From Aestuariivirga sp. (GTDB lineage: Bacteria; Pseudomonadota; Alphaproteobacteria; Rhizobiales; Aestuariivirgaceae), in assembly GCA_035525875.1 (NCBI GenBank), contig DATLDM010000103.1, positions 38,105 to 102,104 of the forward strand: DNA of 64,000 nucleotides. The letters are read 5' to 3'. This document shows positions 40,543-57,089 of the stretch, in pieces. A program made the position numbers and the translations under genes. A model generated the notes under the pieces. That model worked only from the letters and a program-made list of their open reading frames with translations, was not told the origin of the DNA and made no database searches. Numbering within the stretch: position 1 is the first letter of the stretch; each line of letters opens with the position of its first letter.

Positions 40543-41408
40543 ACACCGTTTTTATAGGCGGTTCACGAAATATTTCGCGATTAACCGCTCAGGTCAGGGA
40601 ACGTTTGAATACTGTTATTGAGAAAGGTCATCAAGTCATCGTCGGAGACGCTAACGGTGCCGACAAGGCAGTACAAAAACTTTTGATGGAAGCCGCCTAC
40701 GACAAAGTGACTGTTTTCTGCTCTGGGAACCATCCTAGAAACAATATTGGTCACTGGAATACTCGAAATGTTACGCCACCAAAAGGTGTTCGAGGGTTTG
40801 AGTTTTATGCAGCCAAAGACCGCGAGATGGCAAGAGAGGCCGATTTTGGACTAATGATTTGGGATAGCAAAAGTGCAGGTACAGTTTTAAATGTTTTGCG
40901 TTTGGTACGTAGGGGCAAGATTGCCGTCCTCATAAATGTACCCGATAAGTCAACTACTACAGTCAAGACGGAAACAAACTGGCAAGATTTTTTGGCAAAA
41001 TGTAGTCCATCGCTGAGAGCCGATATTAAGGAGCGAGCAACGAAGGACGAATGGAAATTTTTGACTGCCGACATGCAAGCAAACTTGTTTGAAACTCATG
41101 ATCTATCAATCTTGGGTACAAATAAAGACCCGTCAACTAGCTCACCAGAAGAAGAATTAGCAGTCGAAATAAATGCAGCACTGGATTCAGGGGACTCTGG
41201 CTCATTTGTCGATGCGCTTGGCAACATAGCACGCGCACGTGGCATGACCCAAGTCGCAAAGGAAACCGGTTTAGCGCGTGAAAGTTTGTACCGCTCATTA
41301 GGTAGCGGGGGCAATCCAGAATTCGCTACAGTGCTTAAGATCCTGGCTGCCTTGGGGCTACGACTAGAAGCGCGAAAGACGCGCGAAAGTCGATCCGCAA
41401 AACTCTGA
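40539..41408 (+). CDS. SLOG (YspA/DprA-like) domain fused to a C-terminal HI1420-like addiction-antidote HTH
   Basis: N-terminus VFIGGSR...IVGDANGADKAVQ...KDREMAREADFGLMIWDSKSAGT; C-terminus ALGNIARARGMTQVAKETGLARESLYRSLGSGGNPEFATVLKILAALGLRL; ATGA-type overlap with the PRTase stop. Confidence 0.8.
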   Translation: MNTVFIGGSRNISRLTAQVRERLNTVIEKGHQVIVGDANGADKAVQKLLMEAAYDKVTVFCSGNHPRNNIGHWNTRNVTPPKGVRGFEFYAAKDREMAREADFGLMIWDSKSAGTVLNVLRLVRRGKIAVLINVPDKSTTTVKTETNWQDFLAKCSPSLRADIKERATKDEWKFLTADMQANLFETHDLSILGTNKDPSTSSPEEELAVEINAALDSGDSGSFVDALGNIARARGMTQVAKETGLARESLYRSLGSGGNPEFATVLKILAALGLRLEARKTRESRSAKL

Positions 41409-41452
41409 AATGAATCCAAAATTGCGGAATCTCGGCTTTAAGCAAGCTTCCG

Positions 41453-42346
41453 CTAGCCGGGAAAATTCTCGTACCAATGCCGGGCGATATCAATGCGCCG
41501 GGCGATCCAGACCTTGTCATGGGATTGCACATAATCGAGGAATTTCGCCAGCCCCTGTGCGCGGCCGGGGCGGCCGGCAAGGCGGCAATGCAGCCCTATC
41601 GACATCATTTTTGGCGAGCCGCGCTTTCCTTCCTCATACAGGCAATCGAAGGAGTCCTTCAGATACTGGTAGAAATGCTCGCCCGTATTGAAGCCCTGCG
41701 GCATGGCAAAGCGCATGTCATTGGCATCCAACGTATAGGGAATGACCAGATGCTTCTCCACCCAATAGGGCAGCTCATCCGCATAGGAATCCGATGAATA
41801 AAGAAAGCCGCCCTCATGCCTGATAAGGCGCTGGGTGTTCATCGAGCAGCGCCCCGTGTACCAGCCCAGCGGGCGCTCGCCGGTCACCTCCTTATGGATG
41901 CGGATGGCATCCTGGATGTGCCGCCACTCTTCGTCTTCCGGCATATCCTTGTAGTCAATCCACTTGAGGCCATGGCTGGCAACTTCCCAGCCCGCCTCGA
42001 TCATGGCGCGCGTCTGCTCCGGCGAGCGCTGCAGGGCGGTGGCCACGCCATAAATCGTCAGCGGAATCTTGCGCCCCGTGAACAGGCGCCACAGCCGCCA
42101 GAAACCAGCCCGCGCCCCATATTCATAAACCGATTCCATGTTCCAGTTGCGCTGCCCCGGCCAGGCAACCGCCCCGACGGTTTCAGAGAGAAAAGCTTCC
42201 GAGGCCGCATCGCCATGGAGAATGTTGTTCTCGCCGCCCTCTTCGTAGTTCAGCACGAACTGCACGGCTATGCGCGCTCCGTCCGGCCATTTCGGGTCCG
42301 GAATGGCTAAGGCGTAGCCCTTCAGGTCACGCGGATAATCGGTCAT
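41453..42346 (-). CDS. puuE: Allantoinase PuuE (polysaccharide deacetylase fold)
   Basis: YPRDLKGY, QFVLNYEEGGEN, ESVYEYGARAGFWR, WEVASHGLKW, YTLDANDMRF, GLHCRLAGRPGR. Confidence 0.96.
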   Translation of the reverse strand: MTDYPRDLKGYALAIPDPKWPDGARIAVQFVLNYEEGGENNILHGDAASEAFLSETVGAVAWPGQRNWNMESVYEYGARAGFWRLWRLFTGRKIPLTIYGVATALQRSPEQTRAMIEAGWEVASHGLKWIDYKDMPEDEEWRHIQDAIRIHKEVTGERPLGWYTGRCSMNTQRLIRHEGGFLYSSDSYADELPYWVEKHLVIPYTLDANDMRFAMPQGFNTGEHFYQYLKDSFDCLYEEGKRGSPKMMSIGLHCRLAGRPGRAQGLAKFLDYVQSHDKVWIARRIDIARHWYENFPG

Positions 42347-43619
42347 GAACTTTTTCTCCCGCCACATAGGTAGCACGAATGGCCCTGTCATCGCCCAGTA
42401 TCATCAGGGCGAACAGCATGTCCTCCAGCGATTGCGACAGCTCCTGCCGCGCCGCCAGAACCGGCGTCGCCCGCTGGTCCAGCACCACGATATCCGCGTA
42501 TTTGCCCGTCTCCAGCGCCCCGATTTCATGATCAAGCCGCAGGCGCTCCGCATTGCCACGCGTGGCCATCCGGAAGAGTTCCAGCGCCGCTGGCTTGTAG
42601 CCCGTGAGCATCTGAACCTTGTAGGCCTCGCCAAGGGTTGCCAGCATGGAATACGTGGTGCCGCCGCCCACATCGGTTGCCAGCGCAACGGGAACGGGCC
42701 GTTCCTTCTTGCCCAAATGCTTCATCGCCATCAACCCGGAACCCAGAAAATTATTCGACGTGGGGCAATGGGCGATGGTCGCCCCCGCCTCATGCAGCCG
42801 CTGGCATTCGTTCTCCGACAAATGAACTCCATGGGCAAATATGCCGTGATCATTCACCAGTCCGAAGCGCTCGTACACCGCTGTGTAATCCCGGTCATTA
42901 GGAAACAGCGACTTGATCCAGGCAATTTCGCCCGGGCTTTCCGAAAGATGCGTCTGCATCAGGGCATCGGGATAGGATTTGAGAAGCTCGCCAGAAACCT
43001 TTAACTGCGCCTCGGTTGAGGTAATCGCAAAGCGCGGCGAAATGGCATAGCGCAAACGCCCGTTGCCATGCCACGTTTGATAAAGCGCCTCGGAATCCTT
43101 GGCCCCGGTTGTCGCATCATCATGCACTGCCGGCAACGCATTGCGGTCCATCATCGTCTTGCCGGTCACCAGCGCCATCCCGCGCAACTGCGCTTCGCCA
43201 AACAACGCATCGGCACAGGTCTTGTGGACCGAGCAGAAGGCCATGGCTGCCGTCGTGCCATTTGCAAACAGGCTTTGCAAGAAAGTCTTGGCATTCACCC
43301 TGGCGTAGTCGGCATCGGCATAGCGCGCCTCTTCCGGAAAGGTAAAGCGGGTCAGCCAGTCCAACAAATCCTTGCCTGGGGCCGCGAGCATGCGAAGCTG
43401 GGGGAAATGAATATGCGCGTCAATGAAACCCGCCATGACGATATTGTCGCCATAATCATCCGTTGCAAGGCCCTGGAAATTTCGCGGCAGCAGCGTGAGC
43501 GGCCCGCTCCACAAAATTGTTCCGTCATCGCCAATGACAACTCCGCCTTTGCTTTCATGGGTGACCTCATGATGCGTCTTGCCGAAATTCAGGGTTTGCC
43601 CGCGAACAAGTTTTGTCAT
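42327..43619 (-). CDS. guaD: Guanine deaminase
   Basis: GFIDAHIHFPQ, LLDWLTRFTFPEE, YAISPRFA, QTHLSES, HCPTSNNFLGSG, ATDVGGG. Confidence 0.95.
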   Translation of the reverse strand: MTKLVRGQTLNFGKTHHEVTHESKGGVVIGDDGTILWSGPLTLLPRNFQGLATDDYGDNIVMAGFIDAHIHFPQLRMLAAPGKDLLDWLTRFTFPEEARYADADYARVNAKTFLQSLFANGTTAAMAFCSVHKTCADALFGEAQLRGMALVTGKTMMDRNALPAVHDDATTGAKDSEALYQTWHGNGRLRYAISPRFAITSTEAQLKVSGELLKSYPDALMQTHLSESPGEIAWIKSLFPNDRDYTAVYERFGLVNDHGIFAHGVHLSENECQRLHEAGATIAHCPTSNNFLGSGLMAMKHLGKKERPVPVALATDVGGGTTYSMLATLGEAYKVQMLTGYKPAALELFRMATRGNAERLRLDHEIGALETGKYADIVVLDQRATPVLAARQELSQSLEDMLFALMILGDDRAIRATYVAGEKVHDRLSA

Positions 43620-44113
43620 GGGGCGACGCGGTCCTCGATGCGGAAGCGGAAGATGCGGCACACCTGGTCCAGCGCCATGGCGAACTCGTCCTCCTTGGAA
43701 TGATTCACCCGCTCGGCGAAACTCGAGAGGATTTGCTGCTTGGTGGCCCCCTTCACCGCAAAGATAAAGGGAAAATCAAACTTGGATTTATAAAGCTCGT
43801 TGAGATGGGTGAAGCGCGCAAACTCTTCGGCAGTCAGCGCGCCCAAACCCGCTTGCGCCTGCTCATGGGCAGAATCATCGGTAAGCTTTGCCTTGCTCGC
43901 CAGATCGGGATGCGCCCGGATCAAGGCCAACTGCGCCGTTTCCGATGCGGAATGAACCGCCTCGTGAAAAGCCCTGATCATGGATTCCCGCGACACAAAG
44001 GGCCTGTCGCCCGCTGCATTGCGCGCCACCCAGGGCGAATGCTCCGCCACATCGCCAAAGGTTTTTTCAAATTCCGTGGAACTTAGCGCGTTCACCTGCT
44101 GAATTGTTTTCAT
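43616..44113 (-). CDS. uraD: OHCU decarboxylase
   Basis: FGDVAEHSPWVA, LIRAHPDLA, EQAQAGL, YKSKFDFPFIFAVKG, RIFRFRI; ATGA overlap with the puuD stop. Confidence 0.93.
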   Translation of the reverse strand: MKTIQQVNALSSTEFEKTFGDVAEHSPWVARNAAGDRPFVSRESMIRAFHEAVHSASETAQLALIRAHPDLASKAKLTDDSAHEQAQAGLGALTAEEFARFTHLNELYKSKFDFPFIFAVKGATKQQILSSFAERVNHSKEDEFAMALDQVCRIFRFRIEDRVAP

Positions 44114-46188
44114 TGCGTGTTTATCCATGCCCCCAGCTTCGCCCGTTCTTCGGCCATCATGCCCGTCTTGTTGCCAAGCGGCATGGCCTTGTTCTTCACC
44201 GCCTGCATTTCAATCTGCTGCGCATAGCGCTTCAATTCGTCCAGTGTTTCCAGCGCAATTCCCTTCGGCGCCGTCTTGATCGTGGCATCGCTTGGCGTTT
44301 GCGCATGGCAGGAAGTGCAGCGCGTCTTGACGATTATCAGCGCCTCTTCATCCCCGACGGTGCCGGAATAAGTTGGAGTTGCCGCCGGTTCCGTGAACCA
44401 CAGGGCCGCGGCCAGCGCCCCGCTGATGATCGGAATGGTCCAGGCAATTTGCGCAATTGGGTCACCCACTTCAAGGCGGACAAGAAAGTGGCGCAGCGCC
44501 GCACCGCCGACAACAATCAGGCCAACCAATATCCATGCATGCATATGCTCGGTGATCATCGGATAGTGGTTGCTGATCATCATCAGGAGAACCGGCAGCG
44601 TGAGATAGGTGTTGTGCAGCGAGCGCTGCTTGCCCGTGATGCCAAAGCTTGGATCGGGGGCTTCGCCGCGCAGCAGCGCCTGGGTGGTTTTCTTCTGGTT
44701 CGGAATGATCACCATGAAAACATTGGCCGCCATGATCGTGCCGATGAAGGAACCTACATGGATCAGCGCCCCGCGCCCCGAAAACACCTGGGTAAAGCCA
44801 TAGGCCGCAGCGAGGATAAGCAGGGCCACGCAGAAGGCGAGAAGCTCCGGCTTCCGCACGAGGGCCGAGCGGCACATCAGGTCATAGATGATCCAGCCCG
44901 CGACAAGGCTTGCAACGGATATACCGATGGCCTGCCATGGCGTAAGCACCAGCACATCCTGGGAAATCAGATAGGTACTGGCATTGAGATAATACTGCAC
45001 GATGAGCAGCAGGAAACCCGTGGCCCAGGTGAGATAAGCCTCCCATTTGAACCAGATGAGATCACCGGGCAGCTGGGCCGGAGCCACCAGATATTTCTGC
45101 ACATTGTAAAAGCCACCGCCGTGAACTTCCCAGGCTTCTCCCGAAACACCGGCTGGCAGGCCTTCCCGCTTGCGCAGGGAAAAATCCAGCGCCACAAAAT
45201 AGAAGCTCGTGCCGATCCAGGCGATGCCGGCAATCATGTGGCCCCAGCGCAGCAGCAGGTTCCACCAGTCTTCATCGAGCGGACCGGCACCCGTCAGCCA
45301 GAAGGCGAGGCCCAACGCCAGAAATATGACCGGGAGGGTCCAGGCAATTTTGTTCAACGGATCGCCTACTTCATGGCGCACCAGGAAATGCCGCAGCGCC
45401 ACCCCGCCCACAATGATGAGCCCTGCAAGAAGCCACGCCTGCGGATGATCGGTGAGCATCGCATAATGGTTTGAAACCATCATCACCAGCACCGGCAGGG
45501 TCAGATAGGTATTATGCAAGGAGCGTTGCTTGCCGGTTGCGCCAAAGGCGGGATCGGGCGTTTCGCCGCGGATCAGCGCCACGGTAATCTTGCGCTGGTT
45601 GGGAATGATCACCGCGAACACATTGGCCGCCATCAAGGTGCCGATGAATATGCCGATATGGATGAAAGCCCCGCGGCCGGAATAGACTTGGGTGTAGCCA
45701 TAGGAGGCTGCCATGATCAGTACGAAAACCAGGCCAGCCAAGAGCTGCGGTTGAGACACCGCAAACCGGCGGCACAGAAAATCATAGGCGATCCAGCCCG
45801 CCGCAAGGCTGCCCAGCGAGATCGAAATCGCCTGCCAAGGCAGCAGGGATAACACAGCCGGATCAATCAGATAGGACCCAGCGTTAACGTAATACTGTAA
45901 GCAGAGAAGCAGAAATCCCGTGACCCAGGTGAGATACGCTTCCCACTTGAACCAGATCAGGTCTTCGGGGAGTTTGGGCGGCGCGCTCAGGTATTTGCGG
46001 ACGTTATAAAAGCCGCCGCCGTGAATTTCCCACGCCTCGCCCGAAACGCCTTCCGGCAGGCCCGCCGGTTTCTTCAAGGAAAAGTCCAGCGCCACGAAAT
46101 AGAACGACGTGCCAATCCACGCGATGCCGGCAATCATGTGCCCCCAGCGAGCAAGCAAATTCAGCCATTCTATTACAAACGGATCCAT
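44110..46188 (-). CDS. puuD: Urate hydroxylase/oxidase PuuD with a tandemly duplicated membrane (DUF989) domain and one C-terminal cytochrome c
   Basis: RWGHMIAGIAWIGTSFYFVALDFSL, WFKWEAYLTW, GKQRSLHNTYLTLPVL and SNHY each occur twice, 300 aa apart; a single CTSCH heme motif; lies within the purine cluster. Confidence 0.9.
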   Translation of the reverse strand: MDPFVIEWLNLLARWGHMIAGIAWIGTSFYFVALDFSLKKPAGLPEGVSGEAWEIHGGGFYNVRKYLSAPPKLPEDLIWFKWEAYLTWVTGFLLLCLQYYVNAGSYLIDPAVLSLLPWQAISISLGSLAAGWIAYDFLCRRFAVSQPQLLAGLVFVLIMAASYGYTQVYSGRGAFIHIGIFIGTLMAANVFAVIIPNQRKITVALIRGETPDPAFGATGKQRSLHNTYLTLPVLVMMVSNHYAMLTDHPQAWLLAGLIIVGGVALRHFLVRHEVGDPLNKIAWTLPVIFLALGLAFWLTGAGPLDEDWWNLLLRWGHMIAGIAWIGTSFYFVALDFSLRKREGLPAGVSGEAWEVHGGGFYNVQKYLVAPAQLPGDLIWFKWEAYLTWATGFLLLIVQYYLNASTYLISQDVLVLTPWQAIGISVASLVAGWIIYDLMCRSALVRKPELLAFCVALLILAAAYGFTQVFSGRGALIHVGSFIGTIMAANVFMVIIPNQKKTTQALLRGEAPDPSFGITGKQRSLHNTYLTLPVLLMMISNHYPMITEHMHAWILVGLIVVGGAALRHFLVRLEVGDPIAQIAWTIPIISGALAAALWFTEPAATPTYSGTVGDEEALIIVKTRCTSCHAQTPSDATIKTAPKGIALETLDELKRYAQQIEMQAVKNKAMPLGNKTGMMAEERAKLGAWINTQ
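44392..46188 (-). repeat. Intragenic tandem duplication, 900-bp unit (boundaries approximate)
   Basis: The TGG-GGN codons of RWG are at 46146-46141 and 45246-45241; copies differ at synonymous positions. Confidence 0.9.
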
Positions 46189-46197
46189 CAAGGCTCC

Positions 46198-46251: not shown

Positions 46252-47319
46252 TTATTGCGGCAACTTATCGTCAACGCCCTTCACGTACCAATTCATTCCC
46301 AGAATATCGCCATCGGGAAGCGGCTTGCCGGCTTCGCCGGCAACCGTGCCGTCCTGCCTGGTGATGGGTCCGGTGAACGGATGAAGCGTGCCGGCCGTGA
46401 TGGCGGCCTGCGTCTCGGTGGCCATCTTGGCCACGTCATCAGGCATGTTGGCGTAAGGGGCCATCGTTACCGCGCCTTCGGCCATGCCCTCCCAGGATTG
46501 CGTTGAGGTCCACGTTCCATCCATGGCAGCCTTGACGCGTTTCACATAGTAAGGCCCCCAGCTGTCAACAATTGCCGTGAGTTGTGCCTTGGGGGCAAAG
46601 GCCATCATGTCTGAGCTCTGGCCAAAGCCGAACTTGCCCTGTTCCTGGGCAATCTGCAGGGGCGCGGTGGAGTCCGTGTGCTGGACCATGATATCCGCGC
46701 CCTGGCTCAACAGAACCTTGGCCGCATCGGCTTCCTTGCCTGGGTCAAACCAGGTGTTCACCCAAACGATCTTCACCTTGAAATCCGGATTGACCGTCTG
46801 CGCCCCCAGCATGAAAGCGTTGATGCCGGAAACAACTTCCGGAATGGGGAAGGAAACGATGTAGCCCGCCGTTCCGGTTTTTGACATCTTGGCGGCAATC
46901 TGGCCGATCACGTAGCGGCCCTCGTGGAACTTCGCATTGTAGGTCGCCACATTGGCGGCGGTCTTGTAGCCCGTCGCATGCTCGAACTTCACGTCCGGAA
47001 ATTTGGCGGCGACCTTGATGGTCGGATCCATGAAACCGAAGGAGGTGGTGAAAATCAGCTTGCAGCCGTCACGCGCCAGGCGCTCGATGGTACGGTCGGC
47101 ATCGGGTTCGGGGACATTTTCAACATAAACCGTCTCAACCTTGTCGCCCAGTTCCTTTTCAACATCCTTGCGGCCAACATCGTGCTGGTAGGTGTAGCCG
47201 CCATCGCCCACCGGGCCCACATAAACCCAGCAGGCCTTGTATTTTTCTGCCAGCGAGGCCGTTGTCCCCAGCCCCAGCGCAACCGCCGCCATTGCGGCTG
47301 TCATCAATAATTTCTTCAT
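46252..47319 (-). CDS. BMP family ABC transporter substrate-binding protein (purine/nucleoside)
   Basis: Signal peptide; VYVGPVGDGGYTYQH, IFTTSFGFMDPT, GINAFMLGA, WFDPGKEADAA, QHTDS. Confidence 0.93.
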   Translation of the reverse strand: MKKLLMTAAMAAVALGLGTTASLAEKYKACWVYVGPVGDGGYTYQHDVGRKDVEKELGDKVETVYVENVPEPDADRTIERLARDGCKLIFTTSFGFMDPTIKVAAKFPDVKFEHATGYKTAANVATYNAKFHEGRYVIGQIAAKMSKTGTAGYIVSFPIPEVVSGINAFMLGAQTVNPDFKVKIVWVNTWFDPGKEADAAKVLLSQGADIMVQHTDSTAPLQIAQEQGKFGFGQSSDMMAFAPKAQLTAIVDSWGPYYVKRVKAAMDGTWTSTQSWEGMAEGAVTMAPYANMPDDVAKMATETQAAITAGTLHPFTGPITRQDGTVAGEAGKPLPDGDILGMNWYVKGVDDKLPQ

Positions 47320-47401
47320 GTTCTATCTCCCTGTTATTCTGTTCATTCTGCGGCTTTGTTCGACGTGACCCTGTCCGCCGCGTGGCAGGGCCGGTTGCTG
47401 A

Positions 47402-48277
47402 CTATCTATCAGGCACAAAAGATTGGGCAAGGCAAGCCGGTGTATTGGCCTGCGTCAGCCGCTTGTTTCCGGAAATGATCACCAGCGCGATTACTGTTAC
47501 AAGATAAGGCAGTGCCGAAAGGAATTGCGAAGGGATGCCAAGCCCCATGGACTGGACGACAAAGCCCAGAATGGACACCGCGCCGAAAAGATAGGCTCCC
47601 ACCAGCGTGCGCAGGGGCCGCCAGGATGCAAAAACCACAAGGGCAAGCGCAATCCAGCCCCGCCCCGCCGTCATATTCTCGATCCACTGCGGCGTATAGG
47701 CAAGCGACAGGTAACCCCCCGCAAGGCCCGCGCAGGCCCCGCCAAACATCACGCTGAGATAGCGCAGCGCAATGACCCGGTAACCCAGCGCATGCGCCGA
47801 ATTATGGCTGTTGCCGACCGCCCGGATCACCAGCCCGATCTTGGTTTTGAACAGCAAATAGGCCACCCCCGCCGTGAGAATGAAGGAAAACGGCACCAGC
47901 GCGTCGATGCCGAAAAGCGTGGGCATCTTAAGGCCGGGCTGGCCCACAAAGGCCTCGCCGATCAGGCCGGAAAGGCCAAGCCCCAGAAGGGTGAGCGCCA
48001 GCCCCGCCGCCACCTGATTGGCCACCAGGGTGAGCGTGAGAAATCCAAACAGCGCCGACATGGCAATGCCCGCGAGGATGGCGGCAACCGCCCCCAGCAA
48101 GGTCGATCCCGTGAGGAAGGCCACCGCAAAGCCCGCCACCGCCCCCATCACCATCATGCCTTCAACACCCAGATTGAGCACCCCTGAACGCTCGACGACC
48201 AGCTCGCCCATAGCGGCAAGCAGCAGCGGCGTTGCGGCGGCAATGATGGTGAGCAAAACTGCAAAGCTCTGGTCCAT
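47402..48277 (-). CDS. ABC transporter permease (nucleoside type)
   Basis: ERSGVLNLGVEGMM, AGRGWIALALVVF, ALPYLVT. Confidence 0.93.
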   Translation of the reverse strand: MDQSFAVLLTIIAAATPLLLAAMGELVVERSGVLNLGVEGMMVMGAVAGFAVAFLTGSTLLGAVAAILAGIAMSALFGFLTLTLVANQVAAGLALTLLGLGLSGLIGEAFVGQPGLKMPTLFGIDALVPFSFILTAGVAYLLFKTKIGLVIRAVGNSHNSAHALGYRVIALRYLSVMFGGACAGLAGGYLSLAYTPQWIENMTAGRGWIALALVVFASWRPLRTLVGAYLFGAVSILGFVVQSMGLGIPSQFLSALPYLVTVIALVIISGNKRLTQANTPACLAQSFVPDR

Positions 48278-48281
48278 CCCC

Positions 48282-49364
48282 CTACTCCGCCGCCTTGAGC
48301 GCGCCTATGCGGCCCATCTCGAATTTGATCCGGTAGAGAATAAGCGTGTCGCAGGACAGGATGAAGAACAGCAGGATGCCCTGAAACACCTTGGCGATCT
48401 TGTCGGAAATTCCCAGCGTTACCTGTGCTGCCTCGCCGCCGATGTAGCTCAGCGCCAGCAGCAATCCGGCAAACAAAACCCCAAGCGGATTGAGGCGGCC
48501 AAGGAAGGCCACGATGATCGCCGCAAACCCATAGCCGGGGGATATTTGCGGCTGCAGCTTGCCGATTACGCTGGCGACTTCGCAAATCCCCGCAAGCCCC
48601 GCAAGTCCTCCTGACAGCAGGAAGCAGAGCATCACCATCCTGTCCCGTGAAAATCCGGCAAACCGCCCGGCGCGCGGCGCGTTGCCCGTAACCTTGATCT
48701 CAAATCCGATGAGCGTCCTGGCCATGACAAAGGCAAGGGCGGCACAGGCAAGCAGCGCGAAAAGTGCTCCGAGATGGATGGTTCCGCCAAAGGTTGGAAG
48801 CAATTGCCAGCCGGCAAAAGTTTTTGTGACCGGAAAATTATACCCTTGCGGATCGCGCCACGGCCCGCGCACCAGCCAATCGAGAAAAAGTCCCGCCACA
48901 TAAACCAGCATGAGCGATGTCAGGATTTCATTGGCATTGAAACGTGTTTTGAGCAGGCCCGGAATGGCCCCATAAAGCGCCCCTCCAACCGTTCCCATGA
49001 TGAGCATGACAACAAGGATTGAAGGGTCCTGCCAGTCCGGAAACATGACCGGTGCAATGCTGCCGGCAATGGCCCCCATGGTCAGTTGCCCCTCGGCCCC
49101 AATGTTCCAGACATTGGCCATGTAACAAACCGCTAGCCCAACGCCGATGAGAACGAGCGGCGCGGCCTTGACGACCAACTGCTCAACCGACCAAAGCTGC
49201 GTGAGGGGTTCAACAAAATAAACATAAAGCCCCTCGAGCGGATTGAAGCCGCGCAAGGCGAAGATCAGTCCGCCGGCAATGAGCGTCAGCAGCAGCGCCA
49301 GAAACGGCGAGGCAATGGCAAAGAATGGCGAGCGGTCGGCCCGCTTCTCAAGAATGAGCCGCAT
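48282..49364 (-). CDS. ABC transporter permease (nucleoside type)
   Basis: WNIGAEGQ, NEILTSLML, PGYGFAAIIVAFLGRLNP. Confidence 0.93.
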   Translation of the reverse strand: MRLILEKRADRSPFFAIASPFLALLLTLIAGGLIFALRGFNPLEGLYVYFVEPLTQLWSVEQLVVKAAPLVLIGVGLAVCYMANVWNIGAEGQLTMGAIAGSIAPVMFPDWQDPSILVVMLIMGTVGGALYGAIPGLLKTRFNANEILTSLMLVYVAGLFLDWLVRGPWRDPQGYNFPVTKTFAGWQLLPTFGGTIHLGALFALLACAALAFVMARTLIGFEIKVTGNAPRAGRFAGFSRDRMVMLCFLLSGGLAGLAGICEVASVIGKLQPQISPGYGFAAIIVAFLGRLNPLGVLFAGLLLALSYIGGEAAQVTLGISDKIAKVFQGILLFFILSCDTLILYRIKFEMGRIGALKAAE

Positions 49365-50889
49365 GAGGCGTCTCCTTCTCGTGCGAACCGGCCATCATCA
49401 GGCCGATTTTTTCCGCCGTCATTTCATGGGCAGGGTGCGCCTCGGAAAGCTGCCCGCGGGAAATCACCGCAATGCGGTCAGCCAGTTCGAAAATTTCGTC
49501 CAAATCCTGGCTGATCACGACAACCGCCGAGCCCGAACGCGCAAGATCGATAAGCGCCTGGCGAATTGTTGCCGCAGCACCCGCGTCAACGCCCCAGGTC
49601 GGCTGGTTGACAACCAGCACCTTCGGCTGGCGGTCCAACTCGCGCCCCACCACAAATTTTTGCAGGTTGCCGCCGGACAGCGACCGGGCTTCCGGGTCAG
49701 GCTTGCCCATGCGCACATCGTAGGTTTTGATCACCCGATCGGAGATGGAGTGCGCCTTGCCGCGATTCAGCAGCCCTTTTTCCGCCAGCGACGCATCATC
49801 CGAATGCCGCGTGAGCACAACATTTTCAGATAACGGAAAGACCGGGACCGCGCCATGGCCAAGACGCTCCTCTGGCACAAAAGCGGCCCCCATCCTGCGG
49901 CGTGCGGTCACCCCGATGGCGCCGCACGAGGCGCCATCGATTGAAACCGCATTGCCATTGGACAGGGGCCGTTCCCCGGAAATCGCATCGAAGAGTTCCG
50001 ATTGGCCATTGCCCGCAACCCCGGCAATGGCAATGACTTCACCGCCACGCACCTCAAGATTGATATTCTTAAGCTCGACCGCGAAAGGCCCATCGGCATC
50101 GAGGCTGGCATCCTTCAGCGAGAAGCGCACCGCGCCGTCCCGCGGCGCCTTGGCGGCGCGCACCGTGTGAATATCGCCGCCCACCATGAGCCTGGCGAGA
50201 CTGGCCGCTGTTTCCTCGCGCGGATCACAGGAGGCAACCACCTTGCCGTGGCGCAGGATCGTCGCCCAATGGCACAGGCGCTTCACTTCCTCCAGCCGAT
50301 GCGAAATATAAAGCACCGAACAGCCCTCGCTTGCCAAAAGCCGCAAGGTGAGAAAAAGCAGGTCCGCTTCCTGCGGTGTCAGAACCGCCGTCGGCTCGTC
50401 AAGGATCAGCAGCTTGGGTTCCTGCATCAGGCAGCGCAGGATTTCAATGCGTTGGCGCTCGCCCACCGATAGGTCCGCCACCGTGGCCTTAGGGTTCAGC
50501 GGCAGGCCGTATTCATCCGAATAAAAATCCACCTTCTTGGAAAGCGCATCGAGATCGAATTTTCCGGGCATGGCCAGGGAAATGTTCTCGACGACAGTCA
50601 GGGCTTCAAACAGCGAGAAATGCTGGAACACCATGCCGATGCCAAGCTTGCGCGCCGCATTGGGATTGGGAATGACCACCTCCTGGCCTTTCCACTTGAT
50701 CGTTCCGGAGGTGGGTTGCAGCGAGCCGTAGAGCATTTTGACAAGGGTGGATTTACCGGCCCCGTTTTCCCCCAGAAGGGCATGGATCTGGCCGGGCGCC
50801 ACCTGCAGGGTGACACCGTCATTGGCCCGCAACGTGCCGAACACTTTGACGATGTCGATGGCCTCAAGCAGGTATTCCGGTGCCGTCAT
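49348..50889 (-). CDS. ABC transporter ATP-binding protein (two NBDs, CUT2 type)
   Basis: GENGAGKST, LSVGERQRIEI, LILDEPT, LSGGNLQK, PTWGVD. Confidence 0.96.
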   Translation of the reverse strand: MTAPEYLLEAIDIVKVFGTLRANDGVTLQVAPGQIHALLGENGAGKSTLVKMLYGSLQPTSGTIKWKGQEVVIPNPNAARKLGIGMVFQHFSLFEALTVVENISLAMPGKFDLDALSKKVDFYSDEYGLPLNPKATVADLSVGERQRIEILRCLMQEPKLLILDEPTAVLTPQEADLLFLTLRLLASEGCSVLYISHRLEEVKRLCHWATILRHGKVVASCDPREETAASLARLMVGGDIHTVRAAKAPRDGAVRFSLKDASLDADGPFAVELKNINLEVRGGEVIAIAGVAGNGQSELFDAISGERPLSNGNAVSIDGASCGAIGVTARRRMGAAFVPEERLGHGAVPVFPLSENVVLTRHSDDASLAEKGLLNRGKAHSISDRVIKTYDVRMGKPDPEARSLSGGNLQKFVVGRELDRQPKVLVVNQPTWGVDAGAAATIRQALIDLARSGSAVVVISQDLDEIFELADRIAVISRGQLSEAHPAHEMTAEKIGLMMAGSHEKETPHAAHS

Positions 50890-51821
50890 GACGCGCGTCT
50901 CCCCGCGCCGACTTTATCCAAACGCAAGGCCTCCGCGAGTGGCGATTCAGCGCATCTCATGACTTCGTCGCGTTCGAGAAGCTGGACCGCCGTTGCCGCC
51001 GCAATTGCCGAGGGGTGCTTGGATTTTATGCTGGAAATGCCAATAGGGCAGACCAGTTCTTCGATCCGGCTTTCCGCGACACCAGCCTCGCGCAGCCGCT
51101 TGCTGAACCTTGCCCGTTTGGTGGCGCTGCCGATCAGGCCCGCATAGGCGAATCTTGGACTGCGCAACACCGCATCAATGATTTCGAGGTCAAGTGGATG
51201 GCTATGAGTCATCACCAGCGCAAAACTGCCGGGAGGTGCATCCGCGATCTCGCCAGCGGGATTTTCGCTTTGAATGGTAACCACATTGGAAGGCACGGCC
51301 GCAGGAAAAGCCCCTTCGCGGGGATCAATCCAGATGACGTCAAACGGCAGTGGCGCGAGCGCCAGGATAAGTGCGCGGCCCACATGCCCCGCCCCGAAGA
51401 GATAGAGCTTGCGGATGCTGTCGCCAAACTGCTCGCAGAAATCCGGCGCCAGAATACGCCCCGTGACCGCAAACAAGCCGGTCTCTTCCCGAGCCGCAAA
51501 TTCCTTTGCTACGACCACGTCTTCGCGCGCAAACACTTCCGTCACCAGTTCCACCCGCCCGCCGCAGCATTGCCCGAGGTCAGGTCCGAGCGAATGGACG
51601 CTCAACTTGTGCTGTGTCGGCTTGCCGAGCAGGGCCTGCGCCTTGGCAATGGCCTGCCATTCCAGTGTGCCGCCGCCAATGGTCCCATGAAATCCCAATG
51701 GTGTGACGACAATGCGGGCGCCCGCTTCCCGTGGCGTGGACCCTTCAACCCTGACAACCGAAATCATGGCGCAGGTGCCATGCGCGTCCAGTGCCTTGGC
51801 GACATGGGCCCAGACCTTCAT
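50886..51821 (-). CDS. xdhC: Xanthine dehydrogenase accessory protein
   Basis: GSTPREAGA, GTIGGGTLE, LGQCCGG, LFGAGHVG, MTHSHPLD, GLIGSATKR, CPIG. Confidence 0.95.
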   Translation of the reverse strand: MKVWAHVAKALDAHGTCAMISVVRVEGSTPREAGARIVVTPLGFHGTIGGGTLEWQAIAKAQALLGKPTQHKLSVHSLGPDLGQCCGGRVELVTEVFAREDVVVAKEFAAREETGLFAVTGRILAPDFCEQFGDSIRKLYLFGAGHVGRALILALAPLPFDVIWIDPREGAFPAAVPSNVVTIQSENPAGEIADAPPGSFALVMTHSHPLDLEIIDAVLRSPRFAYAGLIGSATKRARFSKRLREAGVAESRIEELVCPIGISSIKSKHPSAIAAATAVQLLERDEVMRCAESPLAEALRLDKVGAGRRAS

Positions 51822-54130
51822 GCCTGCATCCCCTTCACCGCCCGCAAAATAGCCTCCGGCGTTGCCGGCACTGCAAGCTTTGGAATAACGCCGGGCTTCA
51901 GGCTGCCGACCGCATCGGCAATGGCGCACCATACGGAGATCGGCAGCATCAGCGGCGGCTCGCCCACCGCCTTGGAACGGTAAATCGAATCCGCCGGGTT
52001 CCCGCCGCTTTCATAAAGCTTCACCCTGAAATCGGCCGGCACATCCGAGGCGCAGGGTATTTTGTAAGTGGACGGCGCATGGGTGCGCAGACGACCCTTC
52101 TCGTCAAATACCAGTTCCTCGGTGGTAAGCCAGCCCATGCCTTGCACGAAACCACCTTCAATTTGCCCCATGTCAATGGCGGGATTGAGCGAGCGCCCCA
52201 CATCATGGAGAATATCAACCCGGTCCACCCGCATTTCCCCAGTCATCGTATCGATGGTCACTTCCGAGCAGGATGCGCCATAGGCGAAATAGAAAAATGG
52301 ATTGCCGCGCCCATTGGGCCGGTCCCAGGTGATCTTCGGCGTTGAATAGAAGCCCGTGGAGGACAGCGACACCCGCCCGCCATGCACCTTCTTGGCGAGC
52401 TCGCCGAAGGAAATGCGCTGGTTGCCGATCAACACCTGGCCCTTTTCAAATTTGATGCGCGACTTCGCGACCTTCCATTCCTTCGCCGCGAAATCGATCA
52501 TGCGGGTTTTGATGGCCGACGCCGCGATCTTTGCCGCCATGCCGTTCAGGTCCGAGCCCGATGACGCTGCCGTTGGCGAGGTGTTGGGAACCTTGCCGGT
52601 GGTCGTAGCTGTGATGCGCACCATGTCCGCCGAGATGCCGAACACTTCCGCCACGACCTGGGCGACCTTGATATAGAGCCCCTGCCCCATTTCGGTGCCG
52701 CCATGGTTGAGATGCACTGAACCATCCGTATAGACATGGACAAGGGCGCCCGCCTGATTGAGATGGGTGAGTGTAAACGAAATGCCGAACTTGACCGGCG
52801 TGAGCGCAATACCCTTTTTCAGAACCGTACTCTGCCGGTTAAAGGCCGTGATCTTCTTCCGCCGCGCGCGGTAACTGCTGGATTTCTCCAGCGCCTCGAT
52901 AACCTCAAGAGCAATATTGTCTTCAATCTTTTGCCGGTAGGGCGTCACATCGCGCCCGCGCCCATAGAGATTGCGCTTGCGCACATCAAGCGGATCAAGC
53001 CCCGTTTCAACGGCAATCGCATCCATCACCCGCTCGGCAAACATCATGCCCTGCGGTCCGCCAAAGCCCCGGAACGCCGTATTGGAAACTGTATTGGTGC
53101 GAAGCCGCCGCGACTTGATATGATAGGTGGGATAGAAATAGGCATTGTCCGCATGGAACATCGTGCGGTCGCACACGCCTTGCGAAAGGTCCGCCGAGTA
53201 ACCGCAGCGCGCCAGAAAATCCACGTCGACGGCCGTCAGGCGCGCCGTATCGTCATAACCAATCTTGTAATCGATGCGAAAGTCATGGCGCTTGCCCGTC
53301 ATGATCATGTCCTGGTCGCGGTCCAGCCGGCACTTGGCCGGGCGCCCCGTGACATGGGCGGCAAGCGCCGCCAAGGCCGCCCATTGCGCCGCCTGGCTTT
53401 CCTTGCCGCCGAAAGCCCCGCCCATGCGCCGGCATTCGCACGTCACCATGGCATCGGGAACCTTGAGCATCTTGGCAATGCAATGCTGAACCTCGGTTGG
53501 ATGTTGCGTGGAAGAATAGACGGTCATGCCGCCTTTTTCCTCGGGCATGGCCAAGGCAACTTGCCCTTCAATATAGAAATGCTCCTGCCCGCCCACATGG
53601 AAACTCTCTGAAATCACATGGGGCGCTGCCTTGAGCGCTTTTCCCACATCGCCGTGAGTGAAGGCATATTCCGGCACCACATCCCGGGTGCCCATGGCCA
53701 GCGCGTCTTCCACCGTTACCGCCGGGGGCATCGCAGCCACATCAATCTTCGCCAGCCGCGCCGCGCGCCGCGCAATTTCCCGCGTCTCGGCAACCACGGC
53801 AAAAACCACCTGGCCATGAAATTCGATCACGCCTTCCGCAAAGATCGGATCATCGCCAAGGGCCGGGCTGCAATCATTGACACCGGGAATATCTTGCGCC
53901 GTCAGCACCGCCACAACGCCGGGAAAGGCGCGGACCGCATCAAAGTCAAGGCCGGTAATTTTCCCGCACGCATCGCTGGGGGCGTAACCCGGCTCGACGT
54001 GCAGTGTGCCATCGGGTTCGCGCATGTCATCGATGTAGACAGCCGTTCCCTGAACATGCAGCGCGGCGCTGTCATGGGCGAGTGCCAAGCCAACCGTTTC
54101 TGTTTCAAGGATGCGGGCCCGCACATTCAT
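51818..54130 (-). CDS. xdhB: Xanthine dehydrogenase molybdopterin subunit
   Basis: GGQEHFY, STQHPTEVQ, RRMGGAFGGKESQ, AFRGFGGPQG, SPTAASSGSDLNG, SKAVGEPP. Confidence 0.97.
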   Translation of the reverse strand: MNVRARILETETVGLALAHDSAALHVQGTAVYIDDMREPDGTLHVEPGYAPSDACGKITGLDFDAVRAFPGVVAVLTAQDIPGVNDCSPALGDDPIFAEGVIEFHGQVVFAVVAETREIARRAARLAKIDVAAMPPAVTVEDALAMGTRDVVPEYAFTHGDVGKALKAAPHVISESFHVGGQEHFYIEGQVALAMPEEKGGMTVYSSTQHPTEVQHCIAKMLKVPDAMVTCECRRMGGAFGGKESQAAQWAALAALAAHVTGRPAKCRLDRDQDMIMTGKRHDFRIDYKIGYDDTARLTAVDVDFLARCGYSADLSQGVCDRTMFHADNAYFYPTYHIKSRRLRTNTVSNTAFRGFGGPQGMMFAERVMDAIAVETGLDPLDVRKRNLYGRGRDVTPYRQKIEDNIALEVIEALEKSSSYRARRKKITAFNRQSTVLKKGIALTPVKFGISFTLTHLNQAGALVHVYTDGSVHLNHGGTEMGQGLYIKVAQVVAEVFGISADMVRITATTTGKVPNTSPTAASSGSDLNGMAAKIAASAIKTRMIDFAAKEWKVAKSRIKFEKGQVLIGNQRISFGELAKKVHGGRVSLSSTGFYSTPKITWDRPNGRGNPFFYFAYGASCSEVTIDTMTGEMRVDRVDILHDVGRSLNPAIDMGQIEGGFVQGMGWLTTEELVFDEKGRLRTHAPSTYKIPCASDVPADFRVKLYESGGNPADSIYRSKAVGEPPLMLPISVWCAIADAVGSLKPGVIPKLAVPATPEAILRAVKGMQA

Positions 54131-54131
54131 C

Positions 54132-55604
54132 TCAGGCGGCCTCCCCACGAAGCCCAACCACGCGCGTTGCCGCCGAATGCCCCGAAGCAACTTCCATCAG
54201 GGCCTTGCGAAGCAGGGCGCGGGCCGCAACCAGCCGGTATTCCGCCGAGGCCCGCATATCGCCAATGGGTTGGTAATCCTCCGCCATCGCCAAAATCGCC
54301 CGCTCCCAATTCTGCGGCGCGTCAAGCGAAACGCCGCGCAGCGCCGCGTCGGTTTTCACCGCCCGCTTCGGCGTTGCCGCCATGCCGCCAAAGGCAATGC
54401 GTGCAGATGCGATTGTGCGCCCCTCAAGCTTGAACTTGAAGGCGCCCATGACCGCCGAAATATCCTGGTCAAACCGCTTGGTCAGCTTGAAGGCGCGAAA
54501 CGCTTCATTGGCCTTGAGCTTCGGAACATCAATGCGCCAGACCAATTCGCCGGCGCCGCGGTCCTGCTTGCCATAGGCAACAAAGAAATCTTCTAGCGGC
54601 AGAAACCGTTTGTTTCTGCCCTGGCGGAGATGAAGCGTTGCGCCCAGAGCGATCAGCATCGGCGGGCTGTCGCCAATGGGCGACCCGTTGGCGATATTGC
54701 CGCCAACGGTTCCGGAAGCGCGCACCTGCTTGGCTCCGATCCGGCGGATCACTTCGCCGATATCGGGATCAATGGCGGCGAGAAACGCTTCAGCGCTGGA
54801 ATAGGTAGCCGCGGCCCCAATGGAAACATGCGGGCCTTCGTCGGTGATTTTATCCAGCCCCTTGGTCCGGCCGATATGAATGATTTTCGGCAGGGTTCGA
54901 AGCTGCTTGGTGACCCACAGCCCCACGTCCGTGGCACCCGCAACAACCGTGGCATCGGGATGATCTGCGTAAAGCCTGGTGAGTGCCTCCTCATGGTAAG
55001 GTGCTGCAAAGAAAGTGCTGGTATCGCCCATAAAAACATCTGCAGCGTCATTAAGCGCTGCCAATTGAACCGCAGTTGCCCTGGCCGCTGCCACCCAGGC
55101 ATCGGCTGGTTTGCCCGTGCAGGATTTCGCCGCCGCATCCACAATCGGGCGGTAGCCCGTGCAGCGGCACAGGTTACCCGCGATATGATCAACGATCTCC
55201 TGCCGCGTGGGCTTCTTGCCCGCGTGATAAAGCGTGAACAGGGACATGACGAAACCCGGCGTGCAGAAGCCGCATTGCGAGGCGTGATTGTCGACAAAGG
55301 CCTTCTGCACCGGATGCAATTTTCCGCCGATGGCCAGATCGTCAACGGTGACCAACTCCTTGCCGTCAATCTGGCCCAGCAGAAGAATGCAGGCATTGAC
55401 CGGTTCATAGACCACGCGGTCATTTTCAAGTGAACCCAGCGCTACGGTGCAGGCGCCGCAGTCGCCTTCGTTGCACCCCTCTTTGGTCCCTTTGGATTTT
55501 TCCTCAAGGCGCAGATAATCCAGCAGCGTGCGCGTGGGCGAGATGGAGGAAAGTTCCACCACCTGTCCCCGGCGCAAAAAGCGAATTGTCTGGCGTGTCA
55601 TCAT
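54132..55604 (-). CDS. xdhA: Xanthine dehydrogenase FeS/FAD subunit
   Basis: GTKEGCNEGDCGAC, SQCGFCTPG, GNLCRCTGY, AGATDVGLW, GNIANGSPIGD, KRFDQDIS. Confidence 0.97.
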   Translation of the reverse strand: MMTRQTIRFLRRGQVVELSSISPTRTLLDYLRLEEKSKGTKEGCNEGDCGACTVALGSLENDRVVYEPVNACILLLGQIDGKELVTVDDLAIGGKLHPVQKAFVDNHASQCGFCTPGFVMSLFTLYHAGKKPTRQEIVDHIAGNLCRCTGYRPIVDAAAKSCTGKPADAWVAAARATAVQLAALNDAADVFMGDTSTFFAAPYHEEALTRLYADHPDATVVAGATDVGLWVTKQLRTLPKIIHIGRTKGLDKITDEGPHVSIGAAATYSSAEAFLAAIDPDIGEVIRRIGAKQVRASGTVGGNIANGSPIGDSPPMLIALGATLHLRQGRNKRFLPLEDFFVAYGKQDRGAGELVWRIDVPKLKANEAFRAFKLTKRFDQDISAVMGAFKFKLEGRTIASARIAFGGMAATPKRAVKTDAALRGVSLDAPQNWERAILAMAEDYQPIGDMRASAEYRLVAARALLRKALMEVASGHSAATRVVGLRGEAA

Positions 55605-55608
55605 GCCC

Positions 55609-55959
55609 CTAGCTTCCCCGATAGGTTGAATAGCCATAAGGCGAGAGCAGCAAGGGCACATGATAATGCTGCGATGAATTGGCAATGCCGAACCGGATGG
55701 GAATCACATCAAGGAAGGCGGGCTCGTCAAGCTTCACGCCACTCGCCTTGAGATAAGCCCCCGCATGAAACCTGAGTTCATAGGTGCCGGTCTTGAAATC
55801 ATCGCCTTCGAGAATGGGGCCATCAACCCGGCCATCCCGATTGGTGCTGACCGACTTGATAAGCTCCGGCGTTGCGGCCAGCGACCACAATTCTATCTTC
55901 AGCCCGGCGGCAGGCTTGCCTGAACTTGTATCGAGGACGTGCGTCGTAAGACGGCCCAT
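55609..55959 (-). CDS. uraH: 5-hydroxyisourate hydrolase (transthyretin-like)
   Basis: [32 protein letters not shown]. Confidence 0.97.
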
Positions 55960-57005: not shown

Positions 57006-57089
57006 TGCGGCCACTGTTCTGGCCCTGTCAACCCAGCCATGTTCGAAGGCCCTAGGCTTTGTGTGCGCGCAATAGTAGGTATCTCGGCC

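What the first reader, a model, noticed from the sequence alone, without database searches (positions are those of the whole stretch)
44110..46188. Urate oxidase PuuD with two membrane domains and a single cytochrome c
Seen: about 690 aa made of two 300-aa units exactly 900 bp apart plus one CTSCH domain. Both units keep RWGH, WFKWEAY, RSLHNTY and SNHY, and they differ at synonymous sites, so this is an older duplication under selection rather than an assembly duplication. Known (recall): characterised PuuD is about 400 aa with one membrane domain plus cytochrome c. Inference: a covalent pseudo-dimer in which two membrane units share one heme, suggesting PuuD works as an asymmetric dimer or that the units have specialised (for example transport versus catalysis).
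Basis: partly seen in the sequence, partly recalled or inferred. Interest (0 to 1): 0.7.

Follow-up and report, generated by a model that had tools for sequence, protein, structure and literature searches.

The report
Tandem-doubled membrane urate oxidase PuuD
This is a real, conserved version of the bacterial membrane urate oxidase PuuD in which the 8-helix membrane domain is present twice in one chain ahead of a single cytochrome c, a variant found throughout one soil and water genus that hints the enzyme normally works as a pair.

Summary
The gene at 44110-46188 (minus strand, 692 aa from the ATG) encodes two full-length Urate_ox_N (DUF989) domains exactly 300 codons apart, then one CTSCH cytochrome c domain. 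The units are 71% identical in protein and DNA.

It is not an assembly artefact:
- About 60 species-level genomes carry it, including the Aestuariivirga litoralis type strain and a complete chromosome.
- About 175 protein clusters carry it.
- An independent assembly of a soil metagenome spans the junction at even depth.

Single-unit relatives in the same family have identical gene order, so this was an in-frame tandem duplication in place.

Both units keep all 33 family-conserved residues. Both are under similar purifying selection (omega 0.16 and 0.19). Specialisation into transport versus catalysis is therefore not supported.

A 6-residue periplasmic linker and an AlphaFold pTM of 0.78 fit a covalent parallel pseudo-dimer feeding one heme c. 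This is an inference, not a demonstration.

A second, unrelated marine clade made the same fusion independently, also inside a urate operon.

No searched paper describes the doubled form. Databases already label these proteins PuuD. I rate it a new variant of a known kind, of moderate interest.

The parts
44110..46188 (-). Doubled puuD gene (692 aa from ATG 46188; stop TGA 44110-44112)
   Evidence: ORF. GGAG 5 nt upstream of the ATG. Two PF06181 domains. Homologues are 692 aa.
45292..46188 (-). Unit 1: first Urate_ox_N / DUF989 domain with 8 TM helices (aa 1-300 in TTG numbering)
   Evidence: Pfam E 1.4e-121. AlphaFold helices 4-38, 81-101, 118-143, 148-169, 172-207, 214-242, 252-274, 285-300, plus a beta-hairpin at 49-67.
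44392..45291 (-). Unit 2: second Urate_ox_N / DUF989 domain (aa 301-600), exactly 900 nt after unit 1
   Evidence: Pfam E 6e-122. Direct repeats spaced 900 nt. 71% ungapped identity.
45274..45291 (-). Six-residue linker (aa 301-306) between TM8 of unit 1 and TM1 of unit 2
   Evidence: DSSP of the AlphaFold model shows coil at 301-306 between helices 285-300 and 307-338. The unit offset is exactly 300 aa in 164 of 172 doubled homologues.
44113..44391 (-). Linker plus C-terminal mono-heme cytochrome c domain (aa 601-693)
   Evidence: Weak Cytochrome_CBB3 and Cytochrome_C hits. Invariant C625, C628, H629, M670. Family description in PMC4562309.
44305..44319 (-). CTSCH heme c attachment motif (aa 625-629)
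   Evidence: Sequence. Invariant in 58 homologues.
43616..44113 (-). uraD (OHCU decarboxylase). An ATG overlaps the puuD stop (ATGA). An upstream ATG at 44128 is also possible.
   Evidence: PF09349 E 2.4e-46. Sequence.
42327..43661 (-). Amidohydrolase, read here as guanine deaminase (the name is an inference from context)
   Evidence: PF01979 E 2.1e-51. Conserved synteny.
41453..42391 (-). Polysaccharide-deacetylase-type protein, read here as PuuE allantoinase (the name is an inference from context)
   Evidence: PF01522. Synteny.
46252..50889 (-). BMP-family ABC transporter (binding protein, two permeases, double ATPase) directly upstream
   Evidence: PF02608, PF02653, PF00005.
51818..55685 (-). 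Xanthine dehydrogenase subunits (xdhB 51818-54190, xdhA 54132-55685)
   Evidence: MoCoBD, FAD_binding_5 and Fer2_2 domains.
55609..55959 (-). uraH (5-hydroxyisourate hydrolase, transthyretin-like, C-terminal YRGS)
   Evidence: Motif scan. The name rests on the YRGS signature recalled for the family, not on a Pfam scan.

Best explanation
The gene encodes a 16-helix inner-membrane urate oxidase. It arose by one in-frame tandem duplication, in place, of the first 300 codons of an ordinary puuD. Those codons are the whole 8-TM DUF989 domain. The single C-terminal periplasmic cytochrome c was left untouched.

The domain is Nout-Cout with an even number of helices, so two copies can be joined head to tail without disturbing topology. 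The 6-residue periplasmic linker forces TM8 of unit 1 next to TM1 of unit 2. The two bundles must therefore pack side by side as a parallel pseudo-dimer.

Both units keep the full set of family-conserved residues. I infer that both oxidise urate to 5-hydroxyisourate at their cytoplasmic face. Electrons would pass to the one heme c (His629/Met670) and on to the respiratory chain. The product would go to UraH, to the translationally coupled UraD, and then to PuuE.

What is shown: the architecture, its age, its conservation, the equal constraint on both units, the purine-catabolism operon context, and an independent origin of the same fusion elsewhere.

What is inferred: that the units contact each other, that both are catalytic, that they share the heme, and hence that ordinary PuuD works as a homodimer in which one cytochrome domain suffices.
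For: - Architecture: two complete PF06181 domains and one CxxCH.
- Breadth: the top 120 90%-identity clusters are all about 692 aa, at 94-68% identity.
- Genomes: about 60 species-representative genomes carry it. They include A. litoralis KCTC 52945 (L035) and the complete chromosome NZ_OZ245771 (L046).
- Independent assembly: a 998-nt Logan contig from soil metagenome X1 crosses the unit junction with 0 differences, at even depth of 16-25x.
- In-place duplication: the gene order xdhB-ABC-puuD-uraD-guaD-puuE is identical in doubled genomes and in single-unit relatives such as Taklimakanibacter.
- Single event: the unit offset is exactly 300 aa in 164 of 172 proteins, with a homologous junction.
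- Both units intact: 33 of 33 family-conserved positions are kept in both units. Eighty-nine columns are invariant in both with the same residue, and entropy profiles correlate at r 0.75. Omega is 0.16 versus 0.19.
- Packing: AlphaFold gives pLDDT 79.8 and pTM 0.78 for the whole chain, against 0.83 for one unit plus cytochrome c.
- Convergence: a second clade (P0123, P0124, P0270-P0278) has two units plus one CxxCH. Its 22 units are monophyletic (bootstrap 96) and its offsets are 302-312 aa. It also sits in a urate operon.
- Known biology: the topology and function of single-unit PuuD come from PMC4562309.
Against: - No coordinates were returned, so inter-unit contact rests on the linker length and on pTM only.
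- AlphaFold tends to pack membrane bundles together regardless.
- No activity, heme stoichiometry or oligomeric state is known for any PuuD.
- Unit 2 shows mild relaxation at a few commonly conserved sites. D136 becomes D/T/S, H272 becomes T/L/I, and TM7 entropy is 0.78 versus 0.39. Some asymmetry therefore exists.
- The cytochrome c domain is below Pfam thresholds and has no PDB sequence match.
- The unit trees are NJ only. Monophyly of unit 1 and of unit 2 is poorly supported (bootstrap 49/10 and 6/12).
- Single-unit loci L065 and L069 nest beside the window's doubled group (bootstrap 100). The history therefore needs at least two events.
Confidence: 0.6

Rival explanations
1. Two independent catalytic modules on one chain. 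The duplication simply doubles the number of active membrane domains per polypeptide and per heme c. That would be a dosage or cofactor-economy effect, with no functional interaction between units and no implication for the quaternary structure of ordinary PuuD.
For: Both units keep all conserved residues and evolve under the same constraint. Nothing measured here demonstrates cooperation.
Against: The 6-residue linker makes physical independence of the bundles unlikely. The whole-chain pTM of 0.78 points the same way. The same fusion with only one cytochrome arose twice. That is more easily explained if the two domains already sat together.
Confidence: 0.22
2. Subfunctionalisation. One unit remains the urate oxidase. 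The other has become a structural, regulatory or substrate-channelling/transport module.
For: Mild asymmetry exists. TM7 and positions D136 and H272 are more conserved in unit 1 than in unit 2. A243 versus P243, next to SNHY, is the one clade-wide fixed difference. In the older second clade each unit has lost a few family-conserved residues in some members. Examples are H225Q in 1 of 11 unit-1 copies and 2 of 11 unit-2 copies, and changes at P70 and P232 in unit 2.
Against: 33 of 33 family-conserved positions are retained in both units in all 53 species. Mean entropy (0.635 versus 0.682, n.s.) and omega are equal. There is almost no fixed divergence between the units. PMC4562309 argues that DUF989 is catalytic, not a transporter. 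A separate ABC transporter lies next door.
Confidence: 0.12
3. Assembly or annotation artefact: a falsely duplicated segment, or two adjacent puuD genes read as one.
For: None found.
Against: The copies are only 71% identical in DNA, so they cannot be an assembler's duplicate. The reading frame is uninterrupted. The same architecture occurs in about 60 genomes, including an isolate and a long-read complete chromosome. An independent Logan contig crosses the junction at even depth.
Confidence: 0.01

Closest known systems
PuuD, integral-membrane cytochrome c urate oxidase (COG3748; Agrobacterium fabrum Atu2314; Doniselli et al. 2015, PMC4562309)
   Same: It has the same DUF989/Urate_ox_N 8-TM domain with all family-conserved residues. 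It has a C-terminal CxxCH cytochrome c. It sits in a purine-catabolism operon with uraD, uraH, xdh and an allantoinase. NCBI names its homologues 'urate hydroxylase PuuD'.
   Different: The membrane domain is present twice in tandem (16 TM, 692 aa, against about 400 aa) with still only one cytochrome c. The paper does not contain the words 'duplicat', 'tandem' or 'two copies'.
Single-unit PuuD of Taklimakanibacter and related Aestuariivirgaceae MAGs (L065-L070, L073, L074, L076-L080)
   Same: Each window unit is 70-80% identical to them. Most of them (L065-L067, L069, L070, L073, L074, L077, L079) have identical flanking gene order. L076 and L078 lack the ABC transporter between xdh and puuD. 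They belong to the same bootstrap-100 clade in the unit tree.
   Different: They have one unit of about 393 aa. Their branches in the unit tree are shorter than those of the doubled units.
Second doubled PuuD clade (P0123, P0124, P0270-P0278; marine and estuarine MAGs, one labelled Candidatus Cloacimonadota)
   Same: Two DUF989 units plus one CxxCH in 701-745 aa, embedded in a urate-to-allantoate operon.
   Different: It is only about 40% identical to the window protein. Its unit offset is 302-312 aa, not 300. Its units form their own clade (bootstrap 96) with a deeper unit 1-unit 2 split (distance 0.90 against 0.37). It is therefore an independent and older duplication.
Short 4-TM DUF989 proteins without cytochrome c (described in PMC4562309)
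   Same: They share helices I, II, V and VI of the domain.
   Different: They are the opposite architectural trend: half a domain, no cytochrome and a different gene context. They were not examined here.

Membership tests
PuuD (COG3748) membrane cytochrome c urate oxidase | Full-length DUF989 / Urate_ox_N (PF06181) 8-TM domain | tested here: met
   Two full-length matches, E 1.4e-121 and 6e-122. AlphaFold shows 8 helices per unit.
PuuD (COG3748) membrane cytochrome c urate oxidase | C-terminal cytochrome c domain with strictly conserved CxxCH and a distal Met ligand | tested here: met
   CTSCH at 625-629. C625, C628, H629 and M670 are invariant in 58 homologues. Pfam cytochrome hits are only sub-threshold, and PMC4562309 rests the domain on the conserved CXXCH motif.
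PuuD (COG3748) membrane cytochrome c urate oxidase | Conservation of the family's invariant residues (RWGH, HGGG, WFKWE, RSLHN, SNH) | tested here: met
   33 of 33 positions conserved in at least 90% of 105 distant PuuDs are present in both units.
PuuD (COG3748) membrane cytochrome c urate oxidase | Genomic association with urate-degradation genes (uraD, uraH, allantoinase, xdh) | tested here: met
   uraD overlaps the stop codon. guaD and puuE lie downstream. xdhAB and uraH lie upstream.
PuuD (COG3748) membrane cytochrome c urate oxidase | Urate oxidase activity without H2O2 release, dependent on cytochrome c | not testable with these tools
   Needs genetics or biochemistry. It has been shown only for A. 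fabrum PuuD (PMC4562309).
PuuD (COG3748) membrane cytochrome c urate oxidase | Canonical architecture: one membrane domain per cytochrome c (about 400 aa) | tested here: not met
   Two membrane domains per cytochrome. This is the point of variation. It is an architectural variant of the family, not a different family.
Internally duplicated (fused-dimer) membrane proteins | Two homologous repeats in one chain with compatible (parallel) topology and a short connecting loop | tested here: met
   Each repeat has 8 TM, Nout-Cout (PMC4562309). The linker is 6 residues. The offset is fixed at 300 aa.
Internally duplicated (fused-dimer) membrane proteins | The repeats pack against each other about a pseudo-twofold axis that mirrors a homodimer of the unfused protein | tested here: inconclusive
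   The whole-chain pTM of 0.78 suggests confident relative placement. No coordinates were available and no PuuD structure exists.

The most novel reading that the evidence does not exclude
PuuD is an obligate parallel dimer in which a single periplasmic heme c serves two membrane catalytic units. The two independent natural fusions reveal this 2:1 stoichiometry. In Aestuariivirgaceae the doubled form can also collapse back to a single unit, as the single-unit L065/L069 loci nested beside the doubled window group suggest. The oligomeric state would then be genetically toggled between a homodimer and a fused pseudo-heterodimer.
Probability: 0.3. Interest if true: 0.55.

Novelty: new variant of a known kind. 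Interest (0 to 1): 0.4.

Why it matters
PuuD is the least understood of the urate oxidases. It has no solved structure and no detectable structural relative. Its membrane-domain cofactor and its oligomeric state are unknown.

A naturally fused form that is conserved, kept intact in both halves, and arose twice is a free experiment. It suggests the membrane domain works in pairs and that one cytochrome c per pair is enough.

It also gives a construct in which each half can be mutated separately. That is impossible with a homodimer.

For annotation, it shows that 692-aa 'PuuD' entries in Aestuariivirga are real and not fusions made by gene callers.

The effect on the wider field is modest. It changes no pathway and adds no new chemistry.

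Tried and rejected
- **NCBIfam scan:** no family at E<=0.01.
- **Sequence search of the PDB:** the full protein and the cytochrome c tail found nothing meaningful.
- **Foldseek against the PDB:** the full model and a single-unit model gave a best E of 0.2-1 and TM of at most 0.3. They offered no fold relative and no mechanistic lead.
- **Chimera test:** I asked whether the nested single-unit proteins (L065, L069, L073, L080) are unit 1/unit 2 recombinants. At 32 sites fixed between the window group's units, the pattern is a mosaic of conservative changes. It is not a clean crossover, so the test is inconclusive.
- **Clade-wide diagnostic sites between units:** only one was found (A243/P243). 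No specialisation signature could be mapped.
- **Gene conversion test:** a unit 1 is only slightly closer to its own unit 2 than to other species' unit 2 (p-distance 0.294 versus 0.308). That is weak and not decisive.
- **First dN/dS attempt:** it used the wrong register and was discarded. It was redone on a codon alignment.
- **'Joints' skipping 944-963 nt in run X3:** the flanks are only 22-23 nt and the skip is not 900. I judged them to be cross-mapping of related strains, not collapsed alleles.
- **Coevolution analysis for inter-unit contacts:** not attempted, because there are too few diverse sequences.
- **Literature searches:** queries for a tandem PuuD found only the 2015 paper, which does not mention duplication.
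Full report
**1. What is there**

The region holds one uninterrupted ORF on the minus strand, 44110..46191 (693 aa from a TTG). A GGAG lies 5 nt before the next codon, the ATG at 46188. Homologues are 692 aa.

Pfam finds two full-length Urate_ox_N (PF06181, formerly DUF989) domains. Scanned separately, aa 1-300 and 301-600 each match about 290 of 295 profile positions at E about 1e-121.

At the DNA level, direct repeats lie exactly 900 nt apart at 71-73% identity. An ungapped comparison of the two 300-codon units gives 71% identity in both protein and DNA. Identity is only 54% at third codon positions.

After unit 2 comes a short linker and a small domain with one CTSCH (aa 625-629). It hits cytochrome c models only below threshold. 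C625, C628, H629 and M670 are invariant among 58 homologues.

**2. It is real and conserved**

A search of 5.8 billion proteins returned, among the best 120 clusters, only proteins of about 692 aa, at 94% down to 68% identity. Several are named 'urate hydroxylase PuuD [Aestuariivirga sp.]'.

A scan of one genome per species found the doubled gene in about 60 species-level genomes:
- Nearly all are Aestuariivirga or unclassified Hyphomicrobiales MAGs.
- They include the cultured type strain A. litoralis KCTC 52945 (L035).
- They include a complete chromosome (L046).

In a soil metagenome that holds 96% of the region's words, independently built contigs tile the gene at even depth. One 998-nt contig crosses the unit junction without a difference. 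Copies that differ at 29% of bases cannot be an assembler's duplicate.

**3. Context**

The gene lies in a complete purine-catabolism cluster on the same strand. The order is:
- uraH
- xdhA and xdhB
- a BMP-type ABC transporter
- puuD
- uraD
- an amidohydrolase (guanine deaminase by context)
- a PuuE-type allantoinase

The puuD stop overlaps an ATG of uraD (ATGA), which suggests translational coupling.

**4. How it arose**

Most of the closest single-unit PuuDs (about 393 aa; Taklimakanibacter albus and lacteus, and several MAGs, all in or near Aestuariivirgaceae) have exactly the same flanking gene order. Two of them, L076 and L078, lack the ABC transporter between xdh and puuD. The doubling was therefore an in-place, in-frame tandem duplication of the first 300 codons. 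It was not a fusion of two separate genes.

The offset between the units is exactly 300 residues in 164 of 172 doubled proteins, and the junction sequence is homologous throughout. This argues for a single event.

In NJ trees of individual units, all Aestuariivirga-type units plus 13 single-unit relatives form one clade (bootstrap 100). The order inside that clade is unresolved.

A tree of six flanking proteins (2064 columns) places two single-unit loci, L065 and L069, as sister to the window's doubled group (bootstrap 100). They are nested among doubled lineages. The history therefore needs at least two events. The common junction favours one gain followed by reversion to a single unit. Two gains or gene exchange cannot be excluded. 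Tests for a recombinant origin of those single units were inconclusive.

**5. Are the units equivalent?**

- All 33 positions conserved in at least 90% of 105 distant single-unit PuuDs are kept in both units in 53 species.
- Eighty-nine columns are invariant in both units, always with the same residue.
- Per-site entropies correlate at r 0.75, and their means (0.635 and 0.682) do not differ significantly.
- On a codon alignment the units differ by dN 0.23 and dS about 1.1 in the window (clade median 0.97), which is near saturation.
- Among orthologues, omega is 0.16 for unit 1 and 0.19 for unit 2.
- Only one position is fixed differently across the clade: A243 in unit 1 and P243 in unit 2.

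Mild asymmetry exists. Unit 2 is looser in TM7 and at D136 and H272. Nothing suggests a degenerate or re-purposed unit. The 2015 paper also argues that DUF989 is catalytic rather than a transporter (PMC4562309).

**6. How it probably works**

Published topology for the domain is eight helices, Nout-Cout, with conserved loops facing the cytoplasm and the cytochrome in the periplasm (PMC4562309). An even-helix Nout-Cout domain can be repeated head to tail without topological conflict.

AlphaFold with a 58-sequence alignment gives eight helices and a cytoplasmic beta-hairpin per unit. A 6-residue coil (301-306) joins TM8 of unit 1 to TM1 of unit 2. Mean pLDDT is 79.8 and pTM is 0.78. One unit plus cytochrome alone gives pTM 0.83.

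A 6-residue linker forces the bundles to be adjacent. A pTM this high for two 300-residue domains implies confident relative placement.

I therefore favour a covalent parallel pseudo-dimer in which both units oxidise urate and hand electrons to one heme c. The contact, the dual activity and the sharing of the heme are inferences. No coordinates were returned and no PuuD structure exists.

**7. Convergence**

An exhaustive HMMER search of 1.84 billion cluster representatives found 606 family clusters at E<=1e-30. Its list of the best 150 hits holds only three doubled representatives.

Two of these (P0123, P0124) lead to a second clade of at least 11 confirmed doubled clusters, 701-745 aa long, each with two units and one CxxCH. 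P0279 (679 aa) probably belongs to it too:
- Its members come from marine and estuarine MAGs.
- They sit inside a urate operon with allantoinase, allantoicase, OHCU decarboxylase and a transthyretin-type HIU hydrolase.
- Their 22 units are monophyletic (bootstrap 96).
- Unit 1 and unit 2 separate reciprocally, at a deeper distance (0.90).
- The offset is 302-312 aa.

The same fusion, again with one cytochrome, thus arose independently. This strengthens the idea that the membrane domains already work side by side.

**8. Comparison with what is known, and verdict**

This is a member of the PuuD family by every sequence and context criterion tested. It departs only in the number of membrane domains per cytochrome.

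The searchable literature contains one paper on the family. That paper does not mention duplication. Databases already carry these proteins under the PuuD name.

It is a new variant of a known kind. It is useful as a natural handle on the quaternary structure and electron-exit stoichiometry of an enzyme without a structure. It is not a new system. Interest: 0.4.

Noticed in passing
window 40539-41408 (+), low-GC patch 40001-42000: A 289-aa ORF has a C-terminal half that matches PF21716 (probable addiction-module antidote protein). It sits in a 2-kb stretch of GC 0.50, against about 0.59 elsewhere, just past the end of the purine operon. It may be a small inserted element or a toxin-antitoxin remnant.
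   Followed up: no
L065 and L069 (also L073, L080): single-unit puuD loci: On a six-protein flanking-gene tree these single-unit loci are sister to the window's doubled group (bootstrap 100) and nested among doubled lineages. This implies either reversion from double to single or a second gain. A site-by-site chimera test was inconclusive.
   Followed up: partly
P0160 (627 aa), from the representatives search: A fusion of an OHCU decarboxylase domain (UraD) to the N-terminus of a single-unit PuuD with cytochrome c. It is another architecture that links steps 1 and 3 of urate degradation in one chain.
   Followed up: no
P0253 (591 aa), from the representatives search: A PuuD membrane domain with no CxxCH. 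It is followed by a low-complexity linker and an unrelated C-terminal domain of roughly 200 aa. This would be a PuuD without its cytochrome c.
   Followed up: no
window 44110-44113 and 46186-46197: The puuD stop TGA overlaps an ATG of uraD (ATGA), suggesting translational coupling. A GGAG lies 5 nt before the ATG at 46188, so the TTG at 46191 listed by the ORF finder is probably not the start.
   Followed up: yes
window 44632-46000, run X3: Short contigs from a related soil metagenome appear as 'joints' skipping 944-963 nt between the two units, with only 22-23 nt on one side. The skip is not 900 nt. I took these as cross-mapping of diverged strains rather than collapsed single-unit alleles.
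   Followed up: partly
window 55609-55959 (-), 36656-37483 (-), 57039-60835 (+): Further nitrogen-catabolism genes surround the cluster. They are a transthyretin-type HIU hydrolase ending in YRGS upstream of xdhA, a bicupin protein, and a hydantoinase/oxoprolinase A/B pair.
   Followed up: no
L035 (A. litoralis), puuD units: The intragenic dS between units is much lower in A. litoralis (0.42) than in the other loci printed (0.97-1.59; clade median 0.97). Stronger codon bias or some gene conversion between units in that lineage could explain it.
   Followed up: no
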